Virus record (IMG/VR): IMGVR_UViG_3300025121_000013
Reading direction: 5' to 3' (one strand)
DNA length: 64,000 nt
From: a virus
Part shown: piece by piece, positions 30,844 through 45,949 of the stretch
Layout: each line of letters starts with the position of its first letter
Numbering within the stretch: position 1 is the stretch's first letter
Made by a program: the position numbers and the translations under genes
The notes under the pieces: model-generated
Seen by the model: only the letters and a program-made list of their open reading frames with translations
Told to the model about the DNA's origin: nothing
Database searches by the model: none

Positions 30844-30890
30844 TACAAAAAAATGGGGCAGGGAGATTCTTTAAATCCCTGTCCCATTTT
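30844..30890. terminator. Bidirectional terminator between convergent units
   Basis: AAAATGGGGCAGGGA/TCCCTGTCCCATTTT. Confidence 0.8.
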
Positions 30891-31211
30891 TCATCTCAAA
30901 TTTTCAAAAAAGAAATAATAATTGTTCTTAAATTTATATTTAGTCTTATGAATATGATTTAAAAAATTAGTTCTACAAAATTTAAACTTCATTTTTAAAT
31001 GAGAAATAATTAACGTATGCATATTATTAGAAAAATGAAATTCAGCTTTGCAATTTGAACAGATAAGAATTTTAAAACATAATATACTCTTTTTAAAATC
31101 TATTGTTTTTTCCCCACATATTAGACAATAACTATCCTCTAATGAATTCAAAGAAAAATCCCCACATGGCATATCACATTGATCTTTCAAAATACATTCA
31201 ATACAAATCAT
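30891..31211 (-). CDS. Cys-rich family B member
   Basis: CIECILKDQCDMPC; CLIC..CSNC. Confidence 0.8.
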   Translation of the reverse strand: MICIECILKDQCDMPCGDFSLNSLEDSYCLICGEKTIDFKKSILCFKILICSNCKAEFHFSNNMHTLIISHLKMKFKFCRTNFLNHIHKTKYKFKNNYYFFFENLR

Positions 31212-31514
31212 CGAACAACTCTCCTATATAAATTTTCAGAAAGAAAACTGTACATAAAATAATATTTTAAATTTTTTGAAAATATAGACATACTTATTGT
31301 CTCAATTTGATATTTTTGATTGCAATTAATACATTCAATATTAATAACATTGTTATAAACAATTCTAGAATTACAAAAAATACATCGACAATTTCTAAAT
31401 GAATAAATTTTTGATTCAAAAAAACGCATTACATTTTTCAATCTGTATTGTTTTTAAAATATCAATGCAAGGGTTTTCACAAATATTTTGAAGAATGCAA
31501 TTATCACAAAGCAT
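31208..31514 (-). pseudogene. Family B member, frameshifted
   Basis: Head MLCDNCILQNICENPC and CIFC..CINC body lie in different frames. Confidence 0.65.
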
Positions 31515-31878
31515 TTTTCTTCGCAATAAATCTATAAAAATATTCCATATGATAAAGAAGACAAATTCCTGAATATAAATCAGATTCCAATATAAAGCAT
31601 ACAAAAGGTTCAAAAACATAAGTTATATTACAAGTTGAACATCTGGTAATTAAAGAATTGTTTATCGAGATTCCTCCTTTATTATGTAAATGTCCAAAAT
31701 TTTTATATTTGTTTTTAAGTTCTGTAAATATAAGATTATTGCAAAATACACATTTTGATTTATGTGGGGTATAGGGTCTAATCAATTGTTGAAAATTTAA
31801 TGTTTTTAAACGGTTATGTAATTCAGAACATATTTCATTATTACAAATATTTTGAAGAATGCAATTATCACAAAGCAT
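31504..31878 (-). CDS. Family B member
   Basis: CDNCILQNIC..C; CVFC..CSTC. Confidence 0.8.
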   Translation of the reverse strand: MLCDNCILQNICNNEICSELHNRLKTLNFQQLIRPYTPHKSKCVFCNNLIFTELKNKYKNFGHLHNKGGISINNSLITRCSTCNITYVFEPFVCFILESDLYSGICLLYHMEYFYRFIAKKNAL

Positions 31879-31880
31879 AT

Positions 31881-32183
31881 TTATTCATTATATGTACTAA
31901 AACTTCCTTTATTAAAAATTATAATTCCCTTATCTTTTGTTTTTTTAGATTTAATTATTGTGCCAAAATTAGTTTGAAAATATTCTAACCCACAGTTTTG
32001 ACAAAATGATTTTTTAGATATATACCTTTCATAAAAGCTAAATTTATTTTTACAAAAAATACAATGATCCATTTTGGTTCTATAAACACTTAAAATTCTT
32101 TCCATTTCTGAACATATATTTTTGCAAATATTTTGTATAATACATGCTTCACAAAGAAAACTACTAATTTTTAGGTTTTCCAA
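31881..32183 (-). CDS. Family B member
   Basis: CEACIIQNICKNIC; CIFC..CQNC. Confidence 0.8.
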   Translation of the reverse strand: MENLKISSFLCEACIIQNICKNICSEMERILSVYRTKMDHCIFCKNKFSFYERYISKKSFCQNCGLEYFQTNFGTIIKSKKTKDKGIIIFNKGSFSTYNE

Positions 32184-32649
32184 TCAAAGCTATATTGGCT
32201 CCATTAAAGTTCAATTTTCGTTGAATAACTTCGAAAGATGAATTCTCAGCGATTCTTATTAAATGTTCTATCCATTTTTTTATATCTCTATTTTTATTAT
32301 TAAACTGAGTTGTGGTTGGCAATACGCAACAGGGAATAATAAAGAATGGAATTCTTCTTTTTAAAGATTCTGTTAAAATAATATCAGTTGCTTCATCTGG
32401 GTGAATTCCAACCAATAAATCAAAATTATCATTTTCTTTCTCAGAAAAATAAGTATTTTTAAAATTAATATTTTTTTCTCTTTTTCTTCTATTTCTTTTC
32501 TTATCAAAGGTCGTGATATTATAGTCAGATAATACTATTTGTAATTTTCCAGTTCCTCCAGCAATATCAGCAATATTCCTAAATTTTTCTTTTGGAAAAT
32601 AAAACCTTATGAGTCTTCCTGCCTCAAAAAACCTCTTTCTGTCTCCCAT
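32164..32649 (-). CDS. SAM-dependent methyltransferase-like protein
   Basis: DIAGGTG, GIHPDEATD, PCC. Confidence 0.8.
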   Translation of the reverse strand: MGDRKRFFEAGRLIRFYFPKEKFRNIADIAGGTGKLQIVLSDYNITTFDKKRNRRKREKNINFKNTYFSEKENDNFDLLVGIHPDEATDIILTESLKRRIPFFIIPCCVLPTTTQFNNKNRDIKKWIEHLIRIAENSSFEVIQRKLNFNGANIALIGKPKN

Positions 32650-32695
32650 TTTTTCTCCTCTTCAAATCTAGATTTTTGTCAATTTTATAAAACTA

Positions 32696-33055
32696 TCACA
32701 TAATATTTATGGATCTTCTCAAAGAATTTTTTCTTCTATAGCCTTGTTCTTTTAAAATAAATTTACAGCTTCTTTTTCTATGAAAATTTTTTATAAGACA
32801 GAATTCATTTCGAAAATTTGTGAAAATAGAAAAATACAATTCTGTGATTCTGTATTTTGTTTTACAGTTAGAACATAGCCATCTATTTGGTGAAGGTTTT
32901 ATTAATTTTAAGTCGCAGATCAAACATTTTTTATTTTCATTCTCTGAAAATATTGAATGCGTTTGAAGTTTAGCAATCGATTCATTTAAAAGAAAACAAT
33001 TATCACAATATGAATTTTTAAATATTAAACATTCAAAACAAGGAATATTAATCAA
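32696..33055 (-). CDS. Family B member (subtype Cx2C..Cx2C)
   Basis: CFEC..CDNC; CLIC..CSNC. Confidence 0.8.
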   Translation of the reverse strand: MINIPCFECLIFKNSYCDNCFLLNESIAKLQTHSIFSENENKKCLICDLKLIKPSPNRWLCSNCKTKYRITELYFSIFTNFRNEFCLIKNFHRKRSCKFILKEQGYRRKNSLRRSINIM

Positions 33056-33384
33056 GTCTGAAACCCCATCTTAGGTTTTATTTTATAAGCTGTATCAAAT
33101 GTGTGATATTCTAAATATATGTTTTTAATAGATATAGATAAATAATTGAATGTACATATATAACTTACTCTACAATTTTCACACCAGTATCTATGAAATA
33201 AATTAGCTTTTAAGTTTGATTTACAAAATAAACATGTCTTAATTTCTTGATTTGAAAATATTGGATTATTTTGGATTTTAATTTTAAAAAATTCTTCTTG
33301 TAAAAGAATGCAAGAAGAACAAGTCGGCATATTTAATAATAGGCATTCAAAACAAGGCACATGAAAAGAATTTAAATTAGTCAA
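33052..33384 (-). CDS. Family B member
   Basis: CFEC..CSSC; CLFC..CENC. Confidence 0.8.
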   Translation of the reverse strand: MTNLNSFHVPCFECLLLNMPTCSSCILLQEEFFKIKIQNNPIFSNQEIKTCLFCKSNLKANLFHRYWCENCRVSYICTFNYLSISIKNIYLEYHTFDTAYKIKPKMGFQT

Positions 33385-33707
33385 GAATCAAATATTGAAA
33401 AACTTTTAATACTAACATTTGTCGAATGATAATATTCAAATTCTATTTCTTCTTTTATAAACCGAATATATAAATAGTGTGAAAATACTAAATAATAAAT
33501 TTTACAATGTTTGCATTCAAAATTAGGTTTTGAAATAACTGTTACGACTTTTTCGCAAAACAAACATGTCTTAATTTCTTGTTTTAAAAACATCGAATGA
33601 TCCTTAAGATTGTCAAATTCATCTTTTAGAAGTATGCATTGTTTACATCGATATTTTTTAAGAATGCAATTAAAACAAGGAATATGAAGAAAATCTGAAC
33701 TAATCAA
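33381..33707 (-). CDS. Family B member
   Basis: CFNC..CKQC; CLFC..CKHC. Confidence 0.8.
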   Translation of the reverse strand: MISSDFLHIPCFNCILKKYRCKQCILLKDEFDNLKDHSMFLKQEIKTCLFCEKVVTVISKPNFECKHCKIYYLVFSHYLYIRFIKEEIEFEYYHSTNVSIKSFSIFDS

Positions 33708-34055
33708 TTAAAAAGGTAAAAAGGGCTAATCATAGGTTTTTTAAAATAATATTTATAAGTTCTATCAGGAGATAAAAAATATTCAATTAGAATATTAGAT
33801 TTTACTAATTTGATGCATAAATAATTTATAGTCATTATATATTGAATTTTACAATGTACACATAAATATTCATGTTTTGTAATAATATTGTCGGTATGTT
33901 TTCCACATATTAAACAATTACAAATCTCTTTTTTTAAAGACATTGAATTATTTTTAAATTTATCAAATTCATTTTTTAGAAGTATACAATCAACACGCAT
34001 AATTTTTAAGAATGCAATCAAAACAGTGAACTTGAAAAGAATTTAAATTAGTCAT
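33704..34055 (-). pseudogene. Family B member, frameshifted
   Basis: MTNLNSFQVHCFDCILKNYA head is out of frame with VDCILLKNEF; short deletion relative to paralog 34130-34414. Confidence 0.7.
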
Positions 34056-34129
34056 ATTCGAAAATTTGAATATTAGAAATTTCTCTTTTAAAATAAGTTT
34101 TATAAATATATTCTTCAAATGGAAAATAT

Positions 34130-34414
34130 TCAATTAATATTTTTATTCATAAACCGAATGTATAAATATTTTCTAGAAACTACAAAATAAATTTTACAAT
34201 GAGTACATTCAAAATCACTTATTGAAATATATCTTGTCGGTTTTTCACAAAATAAACATTTTTTATTTTTTCTTTCTAAAAATATTAAATTATCTTTAAG
34301 TTTATAAAATTCATTCTTTAAAAGTATACAATCAACGCACTGAGCATAATTTTTAAGAATACAATCAAAACAATATATGTTAATATTTTTATTTAAATTA
34401 TGGAGTTCTTTCAT
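34130..34414 (-). CDS. Family B member (C-terminus probably frameshift-truncated)
   Basis: CFDCILKNYAQCVDC; CLFC..CTHC; IEYF tail continues in another frame. Confidence 0.7.
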   Translation of the reverse strand: MKELHNLNKNINIYCFDCILKNYAQCVDCILLKNEFYKLKDNLIFLERKNKKCLFCEKPTRYISISDFECTHCKIYFVVSRKYLYIRFMNKNIN

Positions 34415-34920
34415 AACCTAAAATTTTCATTATTTGGAAGATTCTTCATTATTTCCTTAATTTGATCAAAAGAAACCGGATAAAAATTATTATTATCCAC
34501 TCCTATATCCCATGTTTTTCCATAGGGTTTCATCCTTCCGTGTGAATGCCCAAATAAAAGCCAACTATTATAATGTGATCTAGGCCATCTTAACATAGCG
34601 TAATGGCAAATTACAATATATTCTTTTTCATATTTTAATTCAAATATTTCATGATAAAATTTTTTATTAAGTTTCATCCAATAATCATGACTGCCTTTTA
34701 AAAAAATATGTTTTCCTTTTAAAGAATTTATATAATCTTGAACATCGGTTTTTAACAAAGAAAAATCTCCAGCATGAATAACAATATCATTCTCTTTAAC
34801 AATTTCATTATTATTTTGAATCAATTTATTATCCATCTCTGTTATATTTTTAAATGGTCGATTACATAATTTAATTATTTTTCTATGGCCATAATGTTCA
34901 TCAGAAGTGAAAAAATACAT
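34411..34920 (-). CDS. Metallophosphoesterase
   Basis: SDEHYGH, AGDF, GSHD, CHY, GHSH. Confidence 0.93.
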   Translation of the reverse strand: MYFFTSDEHYGHRKIIKLCNRPFKNITEMDNKLIQNNNEIVKENDIVIHAGDFSLLKTDVQDYINSLKGKHIFLKGSHDYWMKLNKKFYHEIFELKYEKEYIVICHYAMLRWPRSHYNSWLLFGHSHGRMKPYGKTWDIGVDNNNFYPVSFDQIKEIMKNLPNNENFRL

Positions 34921-34975
34921 ATTTTAAAACCCCTCCTGTACAAAAGATTTTATTGCTATTTTTTAGTATTTAGAT

Positions 34976-35296
34976 TTAATTAATTTCTATAGGAGATGAA
35001 CTAAATGTCCATATTACATTCTTTTTCACAAACCCAATTCGTCTGGTAGCTAACTGAACTCCAATTCCATTATTTTTCTTAAATTCAATAATTAAACTAC
35101 TAATAAAAGTCCTATATATGATATTACATTTTTCACAATAATAATTATCTCTTTCCTTATTAATAGTTTTACACCCACAATTTAAACAATTTTTTATTAT
35201 TCTATCCCATGAAAAAGTTTTAAAACTATTTATAATATTTGTACAAAGTTCTTTACATTGTGGTTTTAAAATACAATCAACACAAAGTAGTTTCAT
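34976..35296 (-). CDS. Family B member
   Basis: CVDCILKPQCKELC; CLNC..CEKC. Confidence 0.8.
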   Translation of the reverse strand: MKLLCVDCILKPQCKELCTNIINSFKTFSWDRIIKNCLNCGCKTINKERDNYYCEKCNIIYRTFISSLIIEFKKNNGIGVQLATRRIGFVKKNVIWTFSSSPIEIN

Positions 35297-35312
35297 TTTG
35301 TTTTATTCCTCC

Positions 35313-35534
35313 CTAACATTTTCTTGATATAGAATGTTTATAGTCTATGTCTTTTAAAGGCTCATTACAAAATAAGCATCTGGTAAATCGATCATGATTT
35401 ATAAAAAATTTATCATTTTTAACAATTTGTTTCCATTCTTTCATTAAGTTTAAAGTTATGGGGTTGAAGATTTTTATACAATCGTCACATTGTGAGTCAC
35501 AAGTTTTTGTTAAAATACAATGGCTACAAATCAA
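35313..35534 (-). CDS. Family B member, truncated
   Basis: CSHCILTKTCDSQC; stops inside the ribbon. Confidence 0.65.
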   Translation of the reverse strand: MICSHCILTKTCDSQCDDCIKIFNPITLNLMKEWKQIVKNDKFFINHDRFTRCLFCNEPLKDIDYKHSISRKC

Positions 35535-35947
35535 AGTGAGATCCCATAATCACGAATAATTATATTATCAAAATCATTATCTTTAGAATTTTTATGCATA
35601 CAAATATAGTATTTTTCTATCTCAAAAATATGTCTCCTATCAACCAATTGAATAATCATTAAATTTGAAAAATTGGAAAACATATAAATTAAATTTTCTT
35701 TTTCACAATGAAATTTAGGAGCCCCATTTATTAAGGAAAATCTATCAGAAGATATATTTTTCTTTTTCTTTAGAATATCATCACAAAAAATACATTTAAT
35801 GGGTTCTAAATTTCCTATCCATTTAGCATCAGAATGATGAACTGATAAAAGTTCTTAGATTTGATCTTTCTTGTTTTTTACTATTTGAATTAAATTTAAA
35901 CACGCTGTATTACAACATTTTTCTAAAATACAATGATCACATATCAT
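35531..35947 (-). pseudogene. Family B member with in-frame TAA (35855-35857)
   Basis: MICDHCILEKCCNTAC...QI*ELL...CIFC, 139 codons. Confidence 0.75.
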
Positions 35948-35962
35948 ATCTTTCCTTTCATA

Positions 35963-36322
35963 TTATATTTCATATTGAGGCAAAGAAAAATCTAATTTTC
36001 CACTTTCGGAATTATAATTTTTTCCTAAGGTAATTTTTCCATTAGGAAAACTAGGATAATTAAATATGAAAAATAAATTATATTTTTGACCTTCTATAAT
36101 TAAAAAAATTCTATCAAGAAGAAAATAATATAAAATTTTACAATTGGGACATTTAAATGAATGTGGGTAGTTTTGAACACGTTTTAATTTCACTTCGCAA
36201 AAAATACATTTTAAAGTTTTATTAATACTCCAGATTTGTTTTTTAGATTTTTTAACGAAATCAATTATAAAAATACAAGGAGCATTGCATTCTTTAGAAA
36301 TAATACAATCAATACAAATCAT
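35963..36322 (-). CDS. Family B member
   Basis: CIDCIISKECNAPC; CIFC..CPNC. Confidence 0.8.
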   Translation of the reverse strand: MICIDCIISKECNAPCIFIIDFVKKSKKQIWSINKTLKCIFCEVKLKRVQNYPHSFKCPNCKILYYFLLDRIFLIIEGQKYNLFFIFNYPSFPNGKITLGKNYNSESGKLDFSLPQYEI

Positions 36323-36729
36323 TTTTCAACTATTCTTTTAAATTGATCATTTTTTATATAAAAATCTTTTGATAAATAAATATTTTTCTTGTGTGCCGCT
36401 ACCTCAACAAAAAATAAATACGTTGAATTTAAGGGTTTTATAAGAAATATATAATATCGAGAAAATTCATATCTATTTTCATATAAAAATACAGTTTTAC
36501 ATTTTTTGCACCTTTTTGGGAGTGCAAAAGAGCCATCTATTAAAGGTATGTTCTCACAAATTCCATCACAAAATAAACACGGTTCAAAATTCATATTATT
36601 TAATATTTCCCATCTTCTCTTAACATGCCAAGCCAACTTTTTTAAAATAATTTTTGAATCATCACATGGAAAATTACATATTCTTGTTAAAATGCAGTTA
36701 TCACATATCATAAGTTTTAATCTCTCCAA
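36319..36729 (-). CDS. Family B member
   Basis: CDNCILTRICNFPC; CLFC..CKKC. Confidence 0.8.
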   Translation of the reverse strand: MERLKLMICDNCILTRICNFPCDDSKIILKKLAWHVKRRWEILNNMNFEPCLFCDGICENIPLIDGSFALPKRCKKCKTVFLYENRYEFSRYYIFLIKPLNSTYLFFVEVAAHKKNIYLSKDFYIKNDQFKRIVEK

Positions 36730-36779
36730 GCTCCTTAAGTGCGAACGTCAAATTCTTAAGGAGCATTTTAGTTGTGAAT

Positions 36780-37313
36780 TTATCTTTTCTCAAAATGATT
36801 TTTTCTAACATTATGAAATGTAGTTTCAGTTTCCCTTTTTAAATTTTCAGGTTCTTTAAAATAATAATAAAGATAGTACGGAACCAAATTATTTTTGTAG
36901 TACATATCTTCAAGAATATATTCTCCTCGGTTTCTGGCATATTGTGCTTTTGGATCTTTAATTATTTTCATTGTATATAAAAGTAAAACGCCTTTTGTAT
37001 TTTCTCCCAATTTTATTAAAATTCTCATATGTATTAAATATAACGATATGTCAGGACGTTTTCTTGTGAAAGAAATTATTTCTGGTTCACACTTTGCTTC
37101 AATCAATCTCTTTAATAAATCTTTTTCTGAAATGATAAAATTAAAATAATCTGAATAAATTGAATCAAGTTCAGGAAGATTTTTAAACCCTATTATTTTT
37201 CCTTCAAAGATTCCTGGAAGAAAATCATATGGGCCATTATTTGCTAAACAATTAGAACTTGTGAAGATTAATAAAAATATGAATAAAGATATCGTTTTAA
37301 CCATAGCTTTCAT
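36780..37313 (-). CDS. Secreted/periplasmic hypothetical protein
   Basis: Signal peptide ending CLA. Confidence 0.7.
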   Translation of the reverse strand: MKAMVKTISLFIFLLIFTSSNCLANNGPYDFLPGIFEGKIIGFKNLPELDSIYSDYFNFIISEKDLLKRLIEAKCEPEIISFTRKRPDISLYLIHMRILIKLGENTKGVLLLYTMKIIKDPKAQYARNRGEYILEDMYYKNNLVPYYLYYYFKEPENLKRETETTFHNVRKNHFEKR

Positions 37314-37351
37314 GAACGATTCCTTTCCTTTTTAAATCACATTACTAAAGA

Positions 37352-37672
37352 TTAAAAATTTTCTATAAATATCTTTGAGGAAACAAAATTTCTGCTAAAA
37401 ATATATTTCGTTTTATAAATAAGCATTGTTAAATCATTATTATTATTATCTTTAATATGTATTCTTCGATTTGTGATAAAATAATGAATTGAACATTTTA
37501 GACATTTGGAACGCCCCATATATATTTTTAACTGGGAATTACAAAATATACATTTATTTATTTCATTGTTTAAAAAATTTAAAATTCTGTTTTTATTTTT
37601 AGTTATCTCTTCAAAAAGATTAATACATATTTCATTGCAATTAAAACCTAAAATACAATTAACACAAATCAT
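37352..37672 (-). CDS. Family B member
   Basis: CVNCILGFNCNEIC. Confidence 0.8.
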   Translation of the reverse strand: MICVNCILGFNCNEICINLFEEITKNKNRILNFLNNEINKCIFCNSQLKIYMGRSKCLKCSIHYFITNRRIHIKDNNNNDLTMLIYKTKYIFSRNFVSSKIFIENF

Positions 37673-38120
37673 TAGGCAACTTTATACTAACGCCGGGAAG
37701 AATTTCAGTTGAATTAAAAACTTTTGTAACTGTTAATTTTTTAAAGGAGTCATCGATAAAAAATTCTGTTTTTCTATCAAGAAATAATTGTATAACGTAA
37801 CCTCTTCCATTATAGTTAAAATATATATTACAATTTTTACATATTTTTACAGAATTATTTGGAGCTTGTTCTAATTTTGAATCACAATAAATACAATTGA
37901 TCATAATAGGTTGTTTTAAAACATAAAGTATTTCTTTTATTTTATAAATTATCAATTCATCCATGATTCTATGACAAGGATAAAAACATATATTTTTTAA
38001 AATACAAATAGAACAATATGTTCTTCCATCAATTTTTATATTTTTTAAAATTTTGTTTTTATCAAAAATATAGTTAGACATCTTGTTCAATGACCTTTGA
38101 AGAATAAAGACGCATACCAT
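37659..38120 (-). CDS. Family B member (start uncertain)
   Basis: CSICILKNICFYPC. Confidence 0.75.
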   Translation of the reverse strand: MVCVFILQRSLNKMSNYIFDKNKILKNIKIDGRTYCSICILKNICFYPCHRIMDELIIYKIKEILYVLKQPIMINCIYCDSKLEQAPNNSVKICKNCNIYFNYNGRGYVIQLFLDRKTEFFIDDSFKKLTVTKVFNSTEILPGVSIKLPNDLC

Positions 38121-38466
38121 TTTTATGTAATTGAAAATGGTTTAAATCCATGCAAATTTCTATTAAGAAATTTTCACTTATTATAAGGCGAACATAATCT
38201 ACGAAAATATAATATTTTTGCCCGCAAACGCAACATTTATAATTAAGTTTACTTTTTAGATAAATACCAGAATCTGCCATTTGTAAATTGTTATCACATA
38301 ACAAACATTTTGTCACTCTCTTAGATAAAGTATAATTTCTTATAAAATTATTTTTAATTTTTTTAATCTCATTTTCATATTCTTTGCAAATGTTAAAACA
38401 TATTCTTTTTAAAATACATTTGCCGCAAATTTCTAAAAAGTTTTTAGAGAACATATTCTTTTCCAT
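38074..38466 (-). CDS. Family B member
   Basis: CGKCILKRICFNIC. Confidence 0.8.
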   Translation of the reverse strand: MEKNMFSKNFLEICGKCILKRICFNICKEYENEIKKIKNNFIRNYTLSKRVTKCLLCDNNLQMADSGIYLKSKLNYKCCVCGQKYYIFVDYVRLIISENFLIEICMDLNHFQLHKNGMRLYSSKVIEQDV

Positions 38467-38812
38467 GTGTCAAATGAAATATTTGTTTATCATTTTTTGA
38501 TACTATTAAATAAACCATTATAGTACTAATCTCAATTTTGTAATCTTCTTTTTTAAAACAAATATAATCTAAAAAACTATAATATAACTGGTTACAATTT
38601 GGACACTTATACCACATATTTAACCTATCTATTTTTATTTTTATAACTCTTTCACCACAAATTAAACATTGTTCTATATGTTTGTATAATTTAAAATCTT
38701 TTTCAAAATTATTTTTCATTTCTATAAGTTTATTTTTATATTCTAAGCAAATAGGAATACAAACATTTTTTAAAATGCAATTATTACAAAAAGTTAAAAT
38801 ATTATTATTCAT
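38444..38812 (-). CDS. Family B member
   Basis: CNNCILKNVCIPIC; start taken at MNNN. Confidence 0.78.
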   Translation of the reverse strand: MNNNILTFCNNCILKNVCIPICLEYKNKLIEMKNNFEKDFKLYKHIEQCLICGERVIKIKIDRLNMWYKCPNCNQLYYSFLDYICFKKEDYKIEISTIMVYLIVSKNDKQIFHLTHGKEYVL

Positions 38813-39173
38813 ATATGAACAGCAATTTCTCTTTGAAAGAAATATTTTCTTGATCAATAATTTTTTTAAAGTACAATACATTGCCAATATTAAAAACTTT
38901 AATTTCACAATTACCAATACAAAAAGAAAATGCCCAGTCACAGACTAAATTAAAATTATATTTGACTCCACACTTACAATTATAAGAAATGATAATTCCC
39001 AATGGAATTTCTAGATCACAAAAAATACAGTATCTGGGTTTCTCATTTAATAATTGATTCATTTTTAATTTTCTCGGTTCAAATTCTTCTTTGACAATTC
39101 TTTCACAAAATTCAAAACATGTACGGTTTAAAATGCAATTATTACAAAAAAACATTTTTATGTACTGTTTCAT
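38805..39173 (-). CDS. Family B member
   Basis: CNNCILNRTCFEFC. Confidence 0.8.
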   Translation of the reverse strand: MKQYIKMFFCNNCILNRTCFEFCERIVKEEFEPRKLKMNQLLNEKPRYCIFCDLEIPLGIIISYNCKCGVKYNFNLVCDWAFSFCIGNCEIKVFNIGNVLYFKKIIDQENISFKEKLLFIYE

Positions 39174-39525
39174 TTAGTTCAACTGGAATATAACTATTTG
39201 TAACATTTTTCACTCTTTTAAAACCTATATTAAAATTTCTTTTCACTATCCAATATAATTCTTCGTTTTCTTCAATTACAACAAAACTTTCTGAGCAACT
39301 CTCAACCCCTATGTTAAATTTCAAATTACAAAAATCACATTTAAAACTTAGAATATTTGATTGTTTATTTATCATTAATAATCTTCCACAATTCATACAT
39401 ATTCTTTCTCCAACAAGAACACTTCTAATTTTTTCTAAAGATAATTTTTTAGAAATTTCTTCTATTCTATAACAATTTTTTTCACAAATTATTTTGCATA
39501 TACAATCGGAACATGGAAATATCAT
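39142..39525 (-). CDS. Family B member
   Basis: CSDCICKIICEKNC. Confidence 0.8.
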   Translation of the reverse strand: MIFPCSDCICKIICEKNCYRIEEISKKLSLEKIRSVLVGERICMNCGRLLMINKQSNILSFKCDFCNLKFNIGVESCSESFVVIEENEELYWIVKRNFNIGFKRVKNVTNSYIPVELNETVHKNVFL

Positions 39526-39938
39526 AACGAAATCTCTCTTTCATCTTGAGGTTTAAATATTTTATATTTTGAAGTTCGTTCTCCTAAATTCAAATATATC
39601 TTATCAAAGAATACTATTAAAAGAATTATTTCATACGGAGTTTTAATATAAATTTTTCCCATGGTTAAAAATATATTAAATGTATATGAAAGATTGCATC
39701 TAGAACATTTTTTATGAAAAAGTATGTCATTACAATTAAGGGATGTTTTAGATAGAGTTTCCCCACAATTTATACAAATGTTTTTATTTGTTTTTATATT
39801 ATATAAAATATACTTTCTTTTTTCTTTAAAATTTTGAAGAATATTATAACAAGGAAAATGACAATTATTTTTTAAAATACAATTTAGACATTGTTTTGTC
39901 ATTCTAGATGTATTCTTATAAAAGCAGGATAATTCCAT
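39522..39938 (-). CDS. Family B member
   Basis: CLNCILKNNCHFPC. Confidence 0.8.
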   Translation of the reverse strand: MELSCFYKNTSRMTKQCLNCILKNNCHFPCYNILQNFKEKRKYILYNIKTNKNICINCGETLSKTSLNCNDILFHKKCSRCNLSYTFNIFLTMGKIYIKTPYEIILLIVFFDKIYLNLGERTSKYKIFKPQDEREISL

Positions 39939-40270
39939 GCAGTTTCATCTGAATAAAAACTCATCCAATTTTTGCTAATACTAATAATTTTAGATCTTTG
40001 ATCAATGGAAAATAAAAATCTATGTCCAGGTAATAAAAATTTTATGCACCAAGTTAATATAAATATTGTATTACAGTTTGGACAAATTTTTAATCTTTCA
40101 TACTCCTTAAAATCCTTAAGTAATTTTTCACAAAATATGCATTTATTTTTTCCTAATAAAATTAAATTTTTTGAAAGTGTGGTTTTGTTTTCTTCAAAAT
40201 ATTTTTCAGTCAATGAACAAATTTGGTAACAACTATTTCCTAAAATACATTCTTGACAAGGAGGAATCAT
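39899..40270 (-). CDS. Family B member
   Basis: CQECILGNSCYQIC. Confidence 0.8.
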   Translation of the reverse strand: MIPPCQECILGNSCYQICSLTEKYFEENKTTLSKNLILLGKNKCIFCEKLLKDFKEYERLKICPNCNTIFILTWCIKFLLPGHRFLFSIDQRSKIISISKNWMSFYSDETAWNYPAFIRIHLE

Positions 40271-40658
40271 ATCTTATCATATCCTTAACTTTTCCATTTA
40301 AATAAAAATATTTATAATTCTTTGAAATTACCAAATGTGTTTCAGATATCTGAATGTCAAATATAAATTTGTGGTTGAATAAACGAAATTCAAAACACCC
40401 TACCATTGATCCAAATGCCGTATTACATTTAGGGCAGGTTTTTTTAAAAACAGATGGATTACTTTTTAATAATTTCTCTTTACAAAATATACATTGTTCA
40501 TTTATTTTTACAATATTGATCATATTTATAATTTCCTGTTTATTTTCTTCAAAATAATTTTTTGTTATCACACAAATTTGATAACAATTATTTTTTAAAA
40601 TACAATTAGTATCACAAGGGAGAAACAATTGAGATATCATACTGAGACGTATATTCAC
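40233..40658 (-). CDS. Family B member
   Basis: CDTNCILKNNCYQIC. Confidence 0.8.
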   Translation of the reverse strand: MNIRLSMISQLFLPCDTNCILKNNCYQICVITKNYFEENKQEIINMINIVKINEQCIFCKEKLLKSNPSVFKKTCPKCNTAFGSMVGCFEFRLFNHKFIFDIQISETHLVISKNYKYFYLNGKVKDMIRYDSSLSRMYFRK

Positions 40659-40953
40659 TGGTTTTAAAATACCAATATTCTTTTGTCAAATAAATTAAAA
40701 ATCTACTTTTTGGTAAATTGACAACCAGGCTAAAACCATAAAATATATTCATAAAAGTAGTGGCACATTTGGGGCATTTTCCTCCAGGGACGTTTTGTAA
40801 TCTATCTAATTCAATATTACAAAATAAACATTTTTCTATAGATATTAAATTATCATCTGTTGAAAATAGTTTTCGATTTTCTCTAATATAGTTTCGAGTT
40901 TGATCACATATTCGGTCACATGCACTTATCAAAATACAATTCAAACAAAACAA
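40612..40953 (-). CDS. Family B member
   Basis: CLNCILISACDRIC. Confidence 0.8.
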   Translation of the reverse strand: MFCLNCILISACDRICDQTRNYIRENRKLFSTDDNLISIEKCLFCNIELDRLQNVPGGKCPKCATTFMNIFYGFSLVVNLPKSRFLIYLTKEYWYFKTSEYTSQYDISIVSPL

Positions 40954-41277
40954 TTAAATTATCACAGTGCAATCGTCATTTTTTATTTCATTTTTATAAA
41001 TAACCCCTTTATTAATTCTTATTTGTTTTGTATTTTTATTTATTGAGATTAAAAAATTATATTTTTTATTTAAAATCAGATAATATAGAGGATGCAAACT
41101 CATATACATTAAATTTCAGTTCATACAATATAAATTAATTAAAGTATCCCCACAAAATAAGCAATTAGAAAAATCTTGATTTTTAAAGAACCGGTTTTTA
41201 TTTTTAAGAAAAGGGTCAATTATTTTTTGACATGATAAATTACAAAAATTATTTAAAATGCAAGTATTACAAATCAT
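40954..41277 (-). pseudogene. Family B member with TGA at a conserved Cys position
   Basis: MICNTCILNNFCNLSC..CLFC..CMN*; TGA at 41116-41118; 108 codons. Confidence 0.7.
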
Positions 41278-41726
41278 TTATAAATTATTTCTTTTATAAA
41301 TCGAGCTGGTGAACCATAATAAAGGCCTGGTTTTATTATGTTTTTAGAAACTAAAGACCCAGCCCCTATAATTGTATTTTCAACAATTTCAATTCCAGCT
41401 AAAATAATACAGCCAGACCCTATAATACAATTTTTATGAATGATAGTTATTTTCTCTTCTTCATCAGACCCAATATATTTAGTATGATTAAATATAACCC
41501 CTGGGCCGATAAAACAATTATCTTCAATGATAACATTTTTAGATATAATTGCGTTAGGCCTTATATTTACGTTTTTTCCAATAAAACAAGACCCGGTAGT
41601 TTTTACCCCATCTCCTATAATCGAATTTGATCTAATATGAGTTCCTGATTTTAATACAACCATATTTCCAATTAGAACATTATCACCAATAAAAACCTTA
41701 TTCTCAATTACACAAAATTCTCCCAT
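41274..41726 (-). CDS. Hexapeptide-repeat acyltransferase (LbH)
   Basis: IG-repeats, IGAGSLVSK, YGSPARFIK. Confidence 0.9.
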   Translation of the reverse strand: MGEFCVIENKVFIGDNVLIGNMVVLKSGTHIRSNSIIGDGVKTTGSCFIGKNVNIRPNAIISKNVIIEDNCFIGPGVIFNHTKYIGSDEEEKITIIHKNCIIGSGCIILAGIEIVENTIIGAGSLVSKNIIKPGLYYGSPARFIKEIIYK

Positions 41727-41730
41727 GTTT

Positions 41731-42408
41731 TTATCTCCTTAAACGTGCGGGATTTCCAAAATAAGTTGAATCTGGTTTTGTACTTTCCAATAAAACTGAT
41801 CCAATTCCTATGGTTGAAAACTTTGAAATGCATAGATTATTTGATATGGTTGATCCGGGTCCAATATAAGTTCCTTTCTCTATAACACAATCTCCGCAAA
41901 TTGTTGAATTGGCACCAATATAAACAAAATCTTTAATGATACTTTGCCCACCAATATGTGACCCAGCTATAATTGTGGAAAATTCTCCTATTCTAACCAT
42001 TGGACTAATAGTGACATTTGGCCCAATAAAAATTCCTTTCTCTAAAATATAATTTTTAGGCATTGACACAGAATGATGAATAACAGATAAAATTTGTTTG
42101 TCAGGAATGTTCATTTTTTTAATCAAATTAATTCGACTTTTCATATCGTTAACTTTTAACAAAGAAAAAGCAAAAAGGCAACCGTCATCTATACGTCTCT
42201 GAATATCATTAAAAGATTCAAGAACTGGAATTCCTAAAAAAACAGATCCAATTGGAAAATTATCATCTAAAAATCCCAAAATTTTATGTTCTGATTTCAC
42301 AAAATTTGTATAAAAAGTATGTTCTCTATAAATGCTTGCGCCGCCTATAATTGCATCTGCAATTTGTATTCCAGCTGAACGGACTCCGAGTATGATTATA
42401 TTTTTCAT
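41731..42408 (-). CDS. NeuD/PglD-like sugar acetyltransferase
   Basis: IIILG..GFLDD..GIPVL N-domain plus LbH, GNPAR. Confidence 0.88.
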   Translation of the reverse strand: MKNIIILGVRSAGIQIADAIIGGASIYREHTFYTNFVKSEHKILGFLDDNFPIGSVFLGIPVLESFNDIQRRIDDGCLFAFSLLKVNDMKSRINLIKKMNIPDKQILSVIHHSVSMPKNYILEKGIFIGPNVTISPMVRIGEFSTIIAGSHIGGQSIIKDFVYIGANSTICGDCVIEKGTYIGPGSTISNNLCISKFSTIGIGSVLLESTKPDSTYFGNPARLRR

Positions 42409-42668
42409 TTCTTCTTTCTCCTTCTATATTGAAATATCAATATTAAAATCCATAAATTTATTATGATACAAAAAATATTTGAAATTATCATTGGATTGTT
42501 TGAAATTTTGAACCCATAAATTATCCACCATATTTGTCCATGAATAACAATGAGCCATAATGATATCGAAATATCATCACTTCTTTTTCTTTGATACAAT
42601 TTGATAATTTGTGGAACCCCAGAAAAAGCCATTGATACCCCAATTATTGTAATCCAAAAATCAATCAA
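42405..42668 (-). CDS. SemiSWEET/PQ-loop transporter
   Basis: PQIIK..K.S.DIS, W.IYG, P.IISN; 3 TM. Confidence 0.9.
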   Translation of the reverse strand: MIDFWITIIGVSMAFSGVPQIIKLYQRKRSDDISISLWLIVIHGQIWWIIYGFKISNNPMIISNIFCIIINLWILILIFQYRRRKKK

Positions 42669-43090
42669 GGAAGTACAAGCCTTACCACCCCATTGTGAAG
42701 CTTATCGTCTCTATACCTAGAAAAATCTTCTGAACATATATGAAACTGCCTCACAATATCCATTCTAAATATTCTAACATTTAAATGTTCTGTATGAAAA
42801 TAATCAATTAAAATTTGTTTTTCATTTTTAATAAGAATTGCAAAAAACTTATAATTAGGAGTGTATAAATATTGAACGTCACAAATTCCACAAGAATATA
42901 AACAATTAGGAAACAAGTGTTCTTCTCTTTTGTTTAATAATTCTTCTCCACAAAATACACAATTATTTAATATTGTGTCTTTATAACTATTATTATCAAT
43001 TAATTCTTTGAAGTTAATCATTTTAATTAGATTTTTACACGGGGTTTCACATGTCTTTTTTAAAATACATTCTATACAACAAATTTTCAT
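42665..43090 (-). CDS. Family B member
   Basis: CIECILKKTCETPC. Confidence 0.8.
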   Translation of the reverse strand: MKICCIECILKKTCETPCKNLIKMINFKELIDNNSYKDTILNNCVFCGEELLNKREEHLFPNCLYSCGICDVQYLYTPNYKFFAILIKNEKQILIDYFHTEHLNVRIFRMDIVRQFHICSEDFSRYRDDKLHNGVVRLVLP

Positions 43091-43100
43091 TCTTCCTCCT

Positions 43101-43457
43101 TTAAGTTATATTGACATAATGATATTTATGAAGAATTAAAATATTATAAGTGTCTGGATGTTTATATCTGTTAAATCTATAAATATTAAAAAAACTATAA
43201 ATTCGTTTAGAAATAAAAACATCAAAAATGAAATTAAAATTTGAATCTTTTTCAATTAATAAAAAACAATCGTTTCTATGACTTATCATTTGAAAAGTAA
43301 TATTACAATTCCCACATTGATTAGCGACTAAATATTTTTCACAAAAAATACATTTTTCTAATCTTATTAAATTTTGTATATTTTTTATTGTGTGAACAAA
43401 ATCAATACAAACTAAATCACATGAATTTTTTAGAATGCAATTATTACAAAGAAACAT
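43101..43457 (-). CDS. Family B member
   Basis: CNNCILKNSCDLVC. Confidence 0.8.
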   Translation of the reverse strand: MFLCNNCILKNSCDLVCIDFVHTIKNIQNLIRLEKCIFCEKYLVANQCGNCNITFQMISHRNDCFLLIEKDSNFNFIFDVFISKRIYSFFNIYRFNRYKHPDTYNILILHKYHYVNIT

Positions 43458-43893
43458 CTAATTTCACCTGATTTTCTCGATTTAGGCTTATTAAATAAGA
43501 TATATTATATAACGAGTCTTTAAAATAGGTAGTGAATTTAAAAACTGTAAATAAAGTACTGTTTCTATTAGCTTTTATAAAATCAAAAATAAATAAATTT
43601 TTATTTTTTGATATTATTGCAAAACATTCAACTCTAGAAACACCTATATATCTTAATTTACACCCTTCACAAATAAAAAGATTATTAGATTTTTCAGTTT
43701 TTCCTGTTAATTTGTTTTTACAAAATACACAATGCTCTGGTCGTTTTCGATATTTATTAATACTATAATCATTTATAATTATTGAGAAATCTATTTCTTT
43801 AATAATTTCATCGCATGGTTTCATACATGTAAAACATAAAATACAATTATCACAAATTAACATATAAAATAAGTCCTTTATCTTTTTTATCAT
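43444..43893 (-). CDS. Family B member
   Basis: CDNCILCFTCMKPC. Confidence 0.8.
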   Translation of the reverse strand: MIKKIKDLFYMLICDNCILCFTCMKPCDEIIKEIDFSIIINDYSINKYRKRPEHCVFCKNKLTGKTEKSNNLFICEGCKLRYIGVSRVECFAIISKNKNLFIFDFIKANRNSTLFTVFKFTTYFKDSLYNISYLISLNRENQVKLDVSL

Positions 43894-44254
43894 GGATCAA
43901 CCTAGTCAAGTTTTGATCTGTTTTTAAAAACCGATGAGAAACATTTACTCGAAATATTATAAAATGCATACGATTTGAAGAAAAATTATCATAATCAAAA
44001 ATAAATTTTGGCTTTATGCTTTCTGCATAAGATAATGAAAAACATTTCCAACGAAAAGTTGATGAATATATTATATTACAATTTTTACATTTTAAATCAA
44101 AAAAATTCCCTTCAAACACTTTTCCACAAAATAAACAAACGGGAGGAAAAAGCGTTACACCCTTAAAATGTTGAAAATTCATATTTTTTATGATCTCTTC
44201 ACATGGCTTCACGCAGGTAAAAGTTAAAATACATTTTTCGCAGAGATCAATCAA
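43850..44254 (-). CDS. Family B member
   Basis: CEKCILTFTCVKPC. Confidence 0.8.
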   Translation of the reverse strand: MIDLCEKCILTFTCVKPCEEIIKNMNFQHFKGVTLFPPVCLFCGKVFEGNFFDLKCKNCNIIYSSTFRWKCFSLSYAESIKPKFIFDYDNFSSNRMHFIIFRVNVSHRFLKTDQNLTRLIHDKKDKGLILYVNL

Positions 44255-44637
44255 GGCGTCTTCTCCTTTGTATCTAAAGGTATAAAATTAAATGATCTAT
44301 TATGTAAAATATTTATAGCTATTTTTGAAAAAGATATATATGTCTGAATTTGTTTAAAAAATATTTCAATTGAGATTTTATGATTAATCAAAAGAATAGA
44401 TGAACAATATTCACAAGTTTCACGTATTATATGAGGAGAGGCATTATAAACTTTATATTTGCCATCATATAAATATTTTCCACAACAAAAACAATGTAAA
44501 AATTCTTTTTGATTAATCAGATCAAAAATAGTTTTTTGATTTTTAAAAATATATTGTAATGATGAAGCACATGATTCTTGACAATAACCAATTAAAATGC
44601 AATCTAAACAAGGGAATCTCTCAAATCTATTTTTCAA
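44251..44637 (-). CDS. Family B member
   Basis: CLDCILIGYCQESC. Confidence 0.8.
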   Translation of the reverse strand: MKNRFERFPCLDCILIGYCQESCASSLQYIFKNQKTIFDLINQKEFLHCFCCGKYLYDGKYKVYNASPHIIRETCEYCSSILLINHKISIEIFFKQIQTYISFSKIAINILHNRSFNFIPLDTKEKTP

Positions 44638-44999
44638 GGAGATTTTCCAGTCCTTAAGATAATTCCTTCTGACATAAAATCTTTTGGGTGGTTTCTTAAG
44701 ACCAATAATTTATTAATATAAAATTCCAACGATAGCAAAATATTATTATTTTTTTCATCCAGAAAAAATATATCTGAAAAATAAATTATTCTTAATCCAC
44801 ATGTTTTACAAAATCTGACTGGGATATAATCTCCTGTTTCAAATAAAAGTTTTTCTTCACAATAAATACATTTTGAACTATCAACATTTTTAAAAAAATC
44901 TATCTCCTTAAGATATGGTTTAAACATTTTATCTACAATTTCTTTGCAGCATTCTAAACATTGATTTTTTAAAATACAATCGATGCATAGGCATTTCAT
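44634..44999 (-). CDS. Family B member (first in unit)
   Basis: CIDCILKNQCLECC, SD AGGAG. Confidence 0.8.
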   Translation of the reverse strand: MKCLCIDCILKNQCLECCKEIVDKMFKPYLKEIDFFKNVDSSKCIYCEEKLLFETGDYIPVRFCKTCGLRIIYFSDIFFLDEKNNNILLSLEFYINKLLVLRNHPKDFMSEGIILRTGKSP

Positions 45000-45077: not shown

Positions 45078-45100
45078 CTCATTTATTAATATATATAGTT
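45078..45100 (-). promoter_or_regulatory. Putative early promoter
   Basis: Identical 23-mer. Confidence 0.75.
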
Positions 45101-45211: not shown

Positions 45212-45949
45212 ATGGAAAAAATTGATTTTCCTGAGGATGAATATAAAAGTATAAAAGATCGACTCGATCAAAATAAAGTCAGCCATACAATTAGAATAAA
45301 ATCTGAATGGGGTAAATATAAAATGGGAAATATTTACGCAACTCCGTGGGGAGATCATATTAAAATTTTATCGATCAAAAGACTTCAATCCATAAGACAA
45401 TATGTTTTTTATAATGATTTAACAAATGATCAAAAAAATGAATTAAGCCAAAAGGATTGTATTGAACATATTGTATTTAAAAAAGTTCCAAAAGACATTG
45501 AAGAATCTGTGGGTGCTTTTGCCATAGATTCTCCTTTAAAAAGAAACGTTAGATTCGAATCTTTTTTAGAACAAAAAATGGATAACATATTAATTGATTT
45601 TGATAAAGTCATTCATTCCTATCATGAAGGATGGCAGAATGGATATATTTATGGGTTTGTCATTGATGGAGCAAAAGAATCATTGACCTTTTTGAAAAAA
45701 TATTTTAATATTATTATTTTCACGGCAAGAGCGTCAGAAGTTCATAAAGACGAAAAAGAAAAAATGATTAGAAACGTTGAAGATTGGTTAAGAAAAAATG
45801 AGATACCCTTTGATTTAGTTACCGCTGATAAAATGCCAGCGTTTGCGTACATTGATGATAAAGCTATCAATTTTGACAATTGGAAAAATGTAATTGGGAT
45901 CGTAAAACAAATGATGACTCAAAAAGAGACAAAAGTTGGAGGGTTTTAA
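45212..45949 (+). CDS. Two-domain protein with C-terminal HAD phosphatase
   Basis: IDFDKVI, FTAR, K, YIDDKA. Confidence 0.8.
   Translation: MEKIDFPEDEYKSIKDRLDQNKVSHTIRIKSEWGKYKMGNIYATPWGDHIKILSIKRLQSIRQYVFYNDLTNDQKNELSQKDCIEHIVFKKVPKDIEESVGAFAIDSPLKRNVRFESFLEQKMDNILIDFDKVIHSYHEGWQNGYIYGFVIDGAKESLTFLKKYFNIIIFTARASEVHKDEKEKMIRNVEDWLRKNEIPFDLVTADKMPAFAYIDDKAINFDNWKNVIGIVKQMMTQKETKVGGF

What the first reader, a model, noticed from the sequence alone, without database searches (positions are those of the whole stretch)
30891..44999. 14-kb single-operon array of ~31 paralogous Cys-cluster genes with hypervariable tails
Seen: about 31 head-to-tail, often overlapping genes of ~100-150 aa between one early promoter and one terminator. 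Each has an N-terminal C-x2-C-I-L-x3-C-x3-C head, a helix, a CxxC..CxxC ribbon and a highly divergent beta-rich C-terminus. Known: Cx2Cx5Cx3C is the spacing of the auxiliary [4Fe-4S] motif of SPASM domains, though it could bind Zn here. Inference: a constant metal-cluster adaptor carrying variable target-binding domains, i.e. an expanded early effector or anti-defence repertoire analogous to the multigene families of large eukaryotic viruses. Expansion on this scale is rare in phages.
Basis: partly seen in the sequence, partly recalled or inferred. Interest (0 to 1): 0.82.

Follow-up and report, generated by a model that had tools for sequence, protein, structure and literature searches.

The report
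Expanding eight-cysteine gene arrays, giant phages
A giant groundwater phage carries 31 tandem, highly diverged copies of a small eight-cysteine protein gene from an uncatalogued family that also forms separate arrays in other uncultured phage-like DNA; the proteins are likely zinc-stabilised binders whose many variants would help the phage take over or disarm its host.

Summary
Observation confirmed with corrections. There are 31 copies on the minus strand, but 6 are broken, 6 unrelated genes are interspersed, and 5 copies have a different head spacing. Variability is not confined to the tails: apart from the cysteines, helix (13%), ribbon (16%) and tail (16%) are equally diverged. A terminator is present; no early promoter was shown.

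No Pfam, NCBIfam, PHROG, PADLOC or PDB family fits. The family is wider than this phage. The four-cysteine head recurs in other low-GC viral or phage-like contigs, fused to a zinc ribbon, another cysteine motif, a helix or membrane segments, in arrays of 4-23. Most outside copies have almost no tail. Here the array fills a cargo slot that is about 3 kb in relatives and 15 kb in this phage.

Best reading: birth-and-death expansion of a likely zinc-held scaffold that yields diversified host-binding proteins. An iron-sulfur head is possible but less likely. The precedent is Bacillus phage G's ~35 zinc ribbons, which lack this head.

The scan noted this same stretch twice and unrelated cysteine-rich arrays in other phages; a sequence look-up found this family nowhere else in the scan.

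The parts
44634..44999 (-). copy 1, intact, 121 aa, first gene of the run, AGGAG ribosome site
44251..44637 (-). copy 2, intact
43850..44254 (-). copy 3, intact
43444..43863 (-). copy 4, intact
43101..43457 (-). copy 5, intact
42665..43090 (-). copy 6, intact
42405..42668 (-). interspersed gene: SemiSWEET/PQ-loop sugar transporter (not a family member)
   Evidence: PF03083 E 1.9e-11
41731..42408 (-). interspersed gene: hexapeptide-repeat acyltransferase
   Evidence: PF00132 E 3.6e-13
41274..41726 (-). interspersed gene: hexapeptide-repeat acyltransferase
   Evidence: PF00132 E 4.6e-22
40954..41277 (-). copy 7, broken: TGA in place of the eighth Cys
40612..40953 (-). copy 8, intact
40233..40640 (-). 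copy 9, intact, Cx3C first knuckle; a population variant has an 18-nt in-frame deletion in the helix
   Evidence: (P0030)
39899..40270 (-). copy 10, intact
39522..39902 (-). copy 11, intact
39142..39525 (-). copy 12, intact
38805..39155 (-). copy 13, intact
38444..38812 (-). copy 14, intact
38074..38454 (-). copy 15, intact
37659..38081 (-). copy 16, intact
37352..37672 (-). copy 17, intact, 106 aa; modelled: short helix, long helix, ribbon, beta-strand tail
36780..37313 (-). interspersed gene: 177-aa protein with a signal-peptide-like N-terminus (read by eye), no Pfam hit
36730..36764 (-). perfect 10-bp stem-loop in the largest internal gap; possible processing or attenuation site (inferred, not folded)
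   Evidence: sequence
36319..36711 (-). copy 18, intact
35963..36322 (-). copy 19, intact
35531..35947 (-). copy 20, broken: TAA at codon 31, and the eighth Cys is lost
35313..35534 (-). copy 21, broken: truncated in the second ribbon knuckle, no tail
34976..35296 (-). copy 22, intact
34411..34920 (-). interspersed gene: calcineurin-like metallophosphoesterase
   Evidence: PF00149 E 3e-4, 21.7 bits against cut-off 21.5
34049..34414 (-). copy 23, variant head, broken: frameshift in the tail
33704..34055 (-). copy 24, variant head, broken: frameshift in the head
33381..33707 (-). copy 25, intact, variant head Cx2C-x6-Cx2C
33052..33384 (-). copy 26, intact, variant head Cx2C-x7-Cx2C
32696..33055 (-). 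copy 27, intact, variant head Cx2C-x7-Cx2C
32164..32649 (-). interspersed gene: likely methyltransferase
   Evidence: PF13679 E 3.6e-4, below cut-off
31881..32183 (-). copy 28, intact
31504..31878 (-). copy 29, intact; first 36 nt identical to copy 30
31208..31514 (-). copy 30, broken: frameshift in the helix region
30891..31211 (-). copy 31, intact, last gene of the run
30848..30892 (-). terminator-like hairpin with U-run, between the array and the converging tail-sheath gene
45079..45098 (+). 20-bp phage promoter-like motif in the divergent gap, 80 nt before the array; in its usual orientation it points away, to the structural genes; use in both directions is not excluded
   Evidence: 7 copies in the held genome; core found 500-700 nt before the tube-like gene in 26 of 36 relatives, shuffles mean 0.16
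28208..30829 (+). tail sheath gene, left anchor of the slot
   Evidence: PF17482 E 6e-7
45880..46671 (+). conserved gene used as right anchor of the slot (tube-like by position; the name is inferred)
   Evidence: orthologues 46-57% identical in relatives

Best explanation
The region is a birth-and-death array of 31 copies of a small gene with a four-cysteine head, a helix and a four-cysteine ribbon, whose products likely bind zinc at both sites and would act as a diversified set of binders of host or competitor-phage proteins. SHOWN: the copies arose by local duplication, overlap so that translation can be coupled, keep their cysteines while nearly every other position has changed, and one in five has been lost by single lesions; the same head has expanded separately in other low-GC contigs on different bodies. 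INFERRED: the two Cys4 sites hold a small fold that tolerates almost any surface, so each new copy is a cheap new binding surface; copies that find a target are kept and the rest decay. The tail is a lineage-specific extension of the ribbon's sheet that adds surface, not the defining part. NOT SHOWN: the metal, expression, timing and any target.
For: Local origin: the nearest neighbour is in the same array for 19 of 22 window copies and 14 of 15 in L091; 21 of 22 window copies fall in one clade of 25 (weak support, 0.64). Recent events: copies 23-25 are 71-73% identical in DNA, and copies 29 and 30 share 36 identical nt. Selection: 25 intact frames and invariant Cys although synonymous sites are near saturation (identical codons 0.69 against 0.65 expected). 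Real losses: the lesions of copies 20, 23, 24 and 30 are present in contigs of other studies with 0 differences. Slot: the sheath-to-tube interval is 0.8-9.4 kb (median 2.9 kb) in 36 relatives and 15.1 kb here. Ribbon: the top sequence and fold matches are zinc ribbons such as RPA12, RPB9, RPC10 and eL43 (profile E 1e-5 to 4e-3; Foldseek E 0.2 or worse). Head as a zinc site: it occurs with no other Cys motif seen (L113, L149, L028); its spacing shifts to two CxxC knuckles in 5 copies; none of 89 heads has the SPASM-type GG and 4 have any Gly there. Phage-restricted so far: 64 pattern hits in 185,579 prokaryote genomes, none with a ribbon behind it.
Against: No target, partner or expression data exist. 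Positive selection is not shown: dS is saturated, and in the youngest pairs dN/dS is 0.3-1.2 (core) and 0.7-2.3 (tail) on 35-59 codons, partly between pseudogenes. The residue make-up follows AT pressure (GC1 0.26 against 0.38 in large genes; FYMINK 47% against 40%), as expected if the surface is only weakly constrained. All 25 intact copies are net basic (+1 to +13) and the ribbon resembles nucleic-acid-machine subunits, which favours a nucleic-acid role. The head is poorly modelled (pLDDT 54-69), so a single zinc site is not shown. Most relatives carry no copy near this slot (4 of 79 loci), so the family is dispensable there.
Confidence: 0.45

Rival explanations
1. The copies are nucleic-acid-binding or RNA-polymerase-associated regulators: a zinc ribbon with a basic helix that binds DNA or RNA, each copy with a different specificity, or together as structural DNA-binding proteins. 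This is the reading Iyer et al. gave for the phage G expansion.
For: All 25 intact copies are net basic. The best PDB matches of the ribbon are polymerase and ribosome zinc ribbons. Phage G ZnRs were proposed as transcription factors or structural DNA binders (PMC7824862, passage).
Against: The basic excess can come from AT-rich codons (Lys 10.5% here, 8.6% in other genes). No basic residue is invariant. The ribbon matches are generic and cover only that module. The head also occurs on membrane-anchored bodies. No repeated operator-like site was sought or seen beyond one promoter motif.
Confidence: 0.2
2. The head is a stand-alone SPASM/ferredoxin-like iron-sulfur module. Three Cys bind one [4Fe-4S] cluster and the fourth binds another, perhaps in a partner chain, so the head would act as an oxygen- or redox-sensitive switch or joining tag on many bodies.
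For: The spacing equals the SPASM motif (PMC5715301, passage). The head pattern retrieved two real radical SAM/SPASM genes (L002, L005), which score 8.3-8.5 bits on the head profile. The only PDB hits of the head profile are the ferredoxin motifs of SdhB, at E 0.7 or worse. The slot holds a radical SAM gene in 27 of 36 relatives. The habitat is groundwater.
Against: The PDB hits are not significant. There is no SPASM or ferredoxin Pfam/NCBIfam match at cut-off (one NuoI hit at E 0.0096). The GG is absent. The x3-to-x2 change in 5 copies is hard to fit with cross-ligation (inference). The slot's radical SAM enzymes lack this motif (0 of 5) and have no orthologue in the held 139 kb.
Confidence: 0.15
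3. The array is a dosage device with an irrelevant surface: only the cysteines matter, for example as a metallothionein-like sink for Zn, Cu or Fe during infection. Sequence divergence then reflects drift under AT pressure and protects the array from deletion by recombination.
For: Only the Cys and one or two hydrophobic head residues are conserved. dN/dS is near 1 outside them, as far as it can be measured. Composition drifts towards AT. 6 of 31 copies are broken. Other arrays pair the head with other Cys-rich bodies (L055).
Against: Tails of 36-75 aa with a retained beta-strand pattern (15.6% identity against 7% chance) are costly for a sink. Head-plus-membrane fusions (L028, L149) do not fit. 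7.5% Cys is well below metallothioneins (recalled).
Confidence: 0.15

Closest known systems
Bacillus phage G zinc-ribbon expansion (~35 copies, e.g. gp32 YP_009015343.1; Iyer et al. 2021, PMC7824862)
   Same: A jumbo phage with about 30-35 small, diverged zinc-ribbon paralogues of unknown function. gp32, 34, 35, 37 and 46 score weakly (5-13 bits) on the ribbon part of our profile, and Gp35, Gp172 and Gp410 appear as weak Foldseek rows, E 0.4-0.6.
   Different: The 16 phage G proteins examined have no four-Cys head (best 4.6 bits). Its ribbon proteins end in a conserved C-terminal motif and lie scattered among other genes. Ours have two metal sites, lie head-to-tail, and the family recurs as arrays in several lineages.
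SPASM domain of radical SAM enzymes (anSME, PqqE; CX9-15GX4C-Xn-CX2CX5CX3C-Xn-C)
   Same: The CX2CX5CX3C spacing and a hydrophobic pair after the second Cys.
   Different: No radical SAM core, no N-terminal CX9-15GX4C, no GG. The motif sits at the N-terminus of a ~120-aa protein and is followed by a separate zinc-ribbon-like module.
TFIIS/RPA12/RPB9/RPC10 and eL43-type zinc ribbons
   Same: CxxC-(8-33)-CxxC ribbon followed by an aromatic residue; best sequence and fold matches; confidently modelled (pLDDT 83-90).
   Different: The match covers only about 40 residues. The head, helix and tail are not explained, and no Pfam ribbon family reaches its cut-off in window copies.
Multigene families and gene accordions of large eukaryotic DNA viruses (e.g. 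ASFV MGFs, poxvirus K3L amplification; recalled, not from a call)
   Same: Local tandem duplication, rapid divergence, pseudogenes and a variable genome slot.
   Different: No sequence relation. The functions of those families are partly known; here none is.

Membership tests
SPASM domain | C-terminal extension of a radical SAM core (CxxxCxxC barrel) | tested here: not met
   Proteins are 100-141 aa with no radical SAM match
SPASM domain | Seven-Cys motif including the N-terminal CX9-15GX4C part | tested here: not met
   The head begins 2-22 residues from the start, with no such part before it; motif definition from PMC5715301
SPASM domain | CX2CX5CX3C spacing | tested here: met
   24 of 31 copies exact
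SPASM domain | Binds [4Fe-4S] clusters | not testable with these tools
   Needs anaerobic purification and spectroscopy
SPASM domain | SPASM fold | tested here: inconclusive
   The head is poorly modelled and residues 1-34 were barely tested in the fold search
Zinc ribbon (TFIIS/RPB9-like), second module | Two CxxC knuckles on a small antiparallel beta-sheet | tested here: met
   Invariant Cys pairs; strands at pLDDT 83-90; profile hits to RPA12 E 1e-5 and RPB9 E 3e-4
Zinc ribbon (TFIIS/RPB9-like), second module | Binds one Zn ion | not testable with these tools
   Inferred from the family; a rubredoxin-type Fe cannot be excluded
Bacillus phage G ZnR family | Single N-terminal ribbon plus a conserved C-terminal motif | tested here: not met
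   Ours have an extra head and lack that motif (16 phage G proteins compared); tblastn of 3 members against 50,697 phage records gave no match at E 1
Bacillus phage G ZnR family | Lineage-specific expansion to about 30 copies in a jumbo phage | tested here: met
   31 in the array, 1 more at G000:39083-39490 and 1 more (P0058) on the same 273,779-bp contig set
Any catalogued family (Pfam, NCBIfam, PHROG, PADLOC) | Members reach the family's cut-off or match consistently | tested here: not met
   Pfam: 0 of 28 window copies at cut-off, best family in 5 of 100. PHROG: best 2 of 22, 1 of 15 and 1 of 89. NCBIfam: 1 of 22, E 0.006. PADLOC: 1 of 100
Early anti-defence gene cluster | Early promoter and inhibition of a host defence | tested here: inconclusive
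   No convincing sigma-70 site; the conserved motif points mainly the other way; activity cannot be tested here

The most novel reading that the evidence does not exclude
The 14-residue head is a free-standing iron-sulfur joining tag, the smallest SPASM-like unit, that cross-links two chains through shared clusters. Giant phages of anoxic habitats would then build combinatorial, oxygen-sensitive heterodimers from dozens of co-translated paralogues: a redox-gated, modular effector library with no described counterpart.
Probability: 0.1. Interest if true: 0.88.

Novelty: new variant of a known kind. Interest (0 to 1): 0.62.

Why it matters
Large paralogue families are thought to be unusual in phages. 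This one takes about 11 kb, roughly 4% of a 274-kb genome, and the same head has been amplified repeatedly in other lineages on at least four kinds of body. It defines an uncatalogued phage domain and gives a replicated natural experiment in how giant phages grow by duplication rather than gene capture. The 25 intact 100-141-aa proteins are easy to make: a metal assay settles zinc against iron-sulfur, and a pooled expression screen in laboratory strains tests for host-takeover or anti-defence activity.

Tried and rejected
1. Homodimer prediction for copy 17 (residues 1-66, 100-row alignment, 4 Zn): score 0.21 against a mark of 0.42; no answer either way.
2. Expression: no RNA holder was listed; this says nothing about expression.
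3. Fold searches: nothing at E <= 0.001 in PDB or BFVD. The best Z in the wide search was 3.9, on the ribbon and tail sheet, with the head barely tested. This shows neither a new fold nor a different one. The ESM Atlas gave no feature hit for copy 17; a second query did not complete.
4. Word-index protein searches returned only known members (5 of 416 and 5 of 327 candidates). Locus searches with the family alignments could not run, and two single-protein searches found nothing.
5. dN/dS by domain: rejected as evidence for positive selection because dS is saturated, except in one pair of pseudogenes.
6. Sequencing error as the cause of the breaks: rejected for copies 20, 23, 24 and 30. For copies 7 and 21 only run X1, a possible source of this DNA, was seen to cover them. 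All runs laid are groundwater runs of 2015-2017 and may be one campaign.
7. Recoding (TGA as selenocysteine in copy 7): judged unlikely by eye; the lesions are of mixed types; not tested with a tool.
8. Origin of the head from the slot's radical SAM gene: 0 of 5 examined have the motif.
9. The tree of 26 copies is mostly unresolved (2 of 23 branches starred), so no order of duplications is claimed.
10. Rows dropped: of 68 profile hits I read 28 and dropped 6 multi-ribbon or unrelated proteins among them. Of 115 metagenome loci, 81 had no profile-supported head and about 10 of the other 34 look like chance frames.
11. Not in print: six searches for such arrays listed no paper on this family; I saw only listings and abstract starts, apart from the passages cited. 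The supplement of PMC7824862 could not be read; it holds the phage G alignment and might list related families.

Full report
SETTING. The window lies in a 139,369-bp contig of 29% GC with tail-sheath and baseplate-like genes and 13 tRNAs. The window's proteins are also on a 273,779-bp contig, so this is about half of a jumbo phage. Runs holding the array are 10 groundwater and 2 soil metagenomes. The host is unknown.

OBSERVATION. A scan of the three minus frames finds 31 heads between 44987 and 31205. Twenty-five copies are intact at 100-141 aa. Six are broken: two nonsense codons, three frameshifts and one truncation. Four lesions are present, with no differences, in contigs from other studies, so they are real pseudogenes. 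Five broken copies still end at the next gene's start when read past the lesion, which suggests recent loss (inference). Six unrelated genes are interspersed. All 37 genes face one way; 26 of 36 junctions overlap and the largest gap is 68 nt. A strong hairpin with a U-run ends the run. No sigma-70 promoter stands out. A 20-bp motif 80 nt upstream occurs 7 times in the held genome (block shuffles gave 0-4) and at a fixed distance before the tube-like gene in 26 of 36 relatives. In 5 of 7 own copies it points to replication or structural genes, so it is more likely their promoter; in the other two a reverse gene starts 35-38 nt away, so use in both directions is open.

ANATOMY. Eight Cys and one Ile are invariant in 22 aligned copies. 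AlphaFold gives a weakly modelled head, a helix, a confident ribbon and a tail of beta-strands that continues the ribbon's sheet (pLDDT 65 and 68). Non-Cys identity is 28% in the head, 13% in the helix, 15.5% in the ribbon and 15.6% in the tail. The constant part is thus the Cys cage and the first hydrophobic residues; the whole surface varies. Five adjacent copies form a younger subfamily (up to 73% DNA identity) with a Cx2C-x6/7-Cx2C head. Synonymous sites are saturated in almost all pairs, so dN/dS cannot separate positive selection from relaxed constraint. In the 10 closest intact pairs pN/pS is 0.41/0.53 in the N-half and 0.53/0.49 in the tail. Single low-depth contigs show population variants: an in-frame 18-nt deletion with two residue changes in copy 9, and two silent and two replacement changes in copy 16.

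NO CATALOGUED FAMILY. Pfam, NCBIfam, PHROG and PADLOC give only scattered weak hits. Three members find nothing in 50,697 GenBank phage records. The ribbon resembles RPA12, RPB9 and eL43 zinc ribbons. The head profile finds only SdhB ferredoxin motifs at E >= 0.7.

THE FAMILY IS WIDER. A profile search of 1.84 billion proteins gave 68 hits at E <= 0.001. Of the 28 I read, 13 are outside proteins with the same eight Cys and two are further copies in this phage. DNA pattern scans then found loci. In viral contigs: L057 has 8 tandem head+ribbon+tail copies two genes from a sheath 49% identical to ours; a 277-kb phage has a pair (L065) and a single copy (L069); L055 has 23 tandem genes with another Cys motif in front of the head and no ribbon; L028 (248 kb) has two heads between membrane segments. 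In metagenome contigs, 9 of 115 loci hold 4 or more heads: L091 (15), L110 (11, mixed bodies), L148 (9), L093 (8), L113 (6, head and helix only), L095 (5), L154 (5), L130 (4) and L149 (4, head and membrane segment). That scan stopped after 43 of 64 parts and needs an FPC start, so these are lower bounds. L093, L095, L148 and L154 share an accession prefix and an N-terminal signature, and count as one lineage. The viral nature of these metagenome pieces is inferred from GC and neighbours; they shared no gene with our phage at E 1e-8. In 185,579 prokaryote genomes the pattern hit 64 places, none with a ribbon behind it. Outside head+ribbon copies mostly lack a tail: median 15 aa, 46 of 66 at most 20 aa, against a median of 54 here. 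Arrays cluster by genome: the nearest neighbour is in the same array for 19 of 22 here, 14 of 15 in L091 and 5 of 8 in L057. The expansions were therefore independent, although tree support is weak.

THE SLOT. Among 79 loci of relatives anchored on the sheath, 36 span sheath to tube: 0.8-9.4 kb, median 2.9 kb, against 15.1 kb here; 3 more exceed 10 kb without reaching the tube. Those intervals hold a minus-strand cargo run, with a radical SAM gene in 27 of 36 and [VI]TNSSS-motif genes in 12 of 36; the held 139 kb has neither. Heads occur in only 4 of 79 loci: three have one head-only gene just downstream of the sheath, in our array's position and orientation, and one is the L057 phage. Single head+ribbon genes sit in the same slot in L069, L060 and L067. 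So a seed gene lives in this slot in some relatives and was amplified about 30-fold here, in place of the usual cargo.

METAL. The head spacing is that of SPASM, but in anSME the first three Cys and a later one bind AuxII (PMC5715301, passages), so the four Cys do not form one site there. A SPASM-like head would need a second cluster, which head-only proteins could get only from another chain. For zinc: the ribbon is typical, the head occurs without another Cys motif, its spacing relaxes to two knuckles, and GG is absent from 89 heads. For iron-sulfur: the exact spacing, weak SPASM and ferredoxin likeness, and the habitat. I put zinc in the head at about 70% and iron-sulfur at about 25% (judgement).

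MECHANISM. Shown: local duplication, coupling-type overlaps, retention of Cys and frames, fast change elsewhere, losses, and repeated amplification on different bodies. Inferred: a small metal-held scaffold that tolerates any surface, giving a library of binders for host takeover or counter-defence (0.45). Rivals are nucleic-acid regulators (0.2), an iron-sulfur switch or joining tag (0.15) and a dosage-only metal sink (0.15).

COMPARISON AND NOVELTY. It works like the ~35-copy zinc-ribbon expansion of Bacillus phage G (PMC7824862; I saw passages, not the supplement), but it is not that family: the phage G proteins lack the head. It is not a SPASM protein. Six literature searches listed no description of this family. 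The kind of phenomenon is known; the head domain, the two-site architecture, the dense coupled array and the repeated independent expansions appear new. Verdict: new variant of a known kind, interest 0.62.

Noticed in passing
G000:C1:1-1700 (outside the window): The contig starts with about 1.7 kb at 57-59% GC against 29% elsewhere. It encodes what reads like ribosomal protein S1 and a DnaJ-type zinc finger (names recalled, not from a call). It may be a chimeric join or host DNA.
   Followed up: no
G000:C1:6340-6889: An 88-aa ORF that reads like ribosomal protein bS21, next to a GroES-like gene (names recalled). bS21-encoding large phages are described in PMC9723584 (search listing and abstract start only).
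   Followed up: no
window 45079-45098, 23614-23633, 13415-13434, 7329-7348; G000 2213, 45655, 136884: A 20-bp AT-rich motif, probably the clade's own promoter; its core is conserved at a fixed distance before the tube-like gene in 26 of 36 relatives.
   Followed up: partly
L069:7445-10258, L334:3892-4953, L305, L306, L271, L272 (sheath-to-tube slot): Relatives carry an undescribed-looking operon of a radical SAM gene (27 of 36) and several small paralogues that start with an MKxKxDF[VI]TNSSS motif (12 of 36); three tested have no Pfam hit.
   Followed up: partly
L055:180-6903: 23 or more tandem 60-98-aa genes with an N-terminal CxxC...C motif followed by CPC and the same head: a second eight-Cys architecture in an 89-kb viral contig, where two cross-ligated clusters are easiest to imagine.
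   Followed up: partly
window 15834-16211; G000 36814-36993 and 40453-40779: Head-like motifs on other bodies elsewhere in this genome; the one at 36814 scores 16 bits on the head profile.
   Followed up: partly
window 41274-42668: A SemiSWEET sugar transporter gene coupled to two hexapeptide acyltransferase genes inside the array; no orthologue in the other loci fetched.
   Followed up: partly
window 7073-9251: A run of small minus-strand genes that look like paralogues of one another (MKIIVDE.../MNIKIIDE... starts with repeated F-x-L motifs): possibly a second, smaller expansion.
   Followed up: no
window 46604-50667: Four related structural-region genes (390, 157, 316 and 324 aa); three share an 'MIITE...EA[ST]DYEI' N-terminal part and have counterparts in relatives.
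   Followed up: no
window 19005-19091: ARAGORN calls a tRNA with a four-base anticodon loop (ggcc), beside tRNA-Leu.
   Followed up: no
L110:7118-7901, L272:17016-17720: Proteins built from ~22-residue 'LSEDFIREF' repeats; in L110 a head-like motif is fused in front of them.
   Followed up: no
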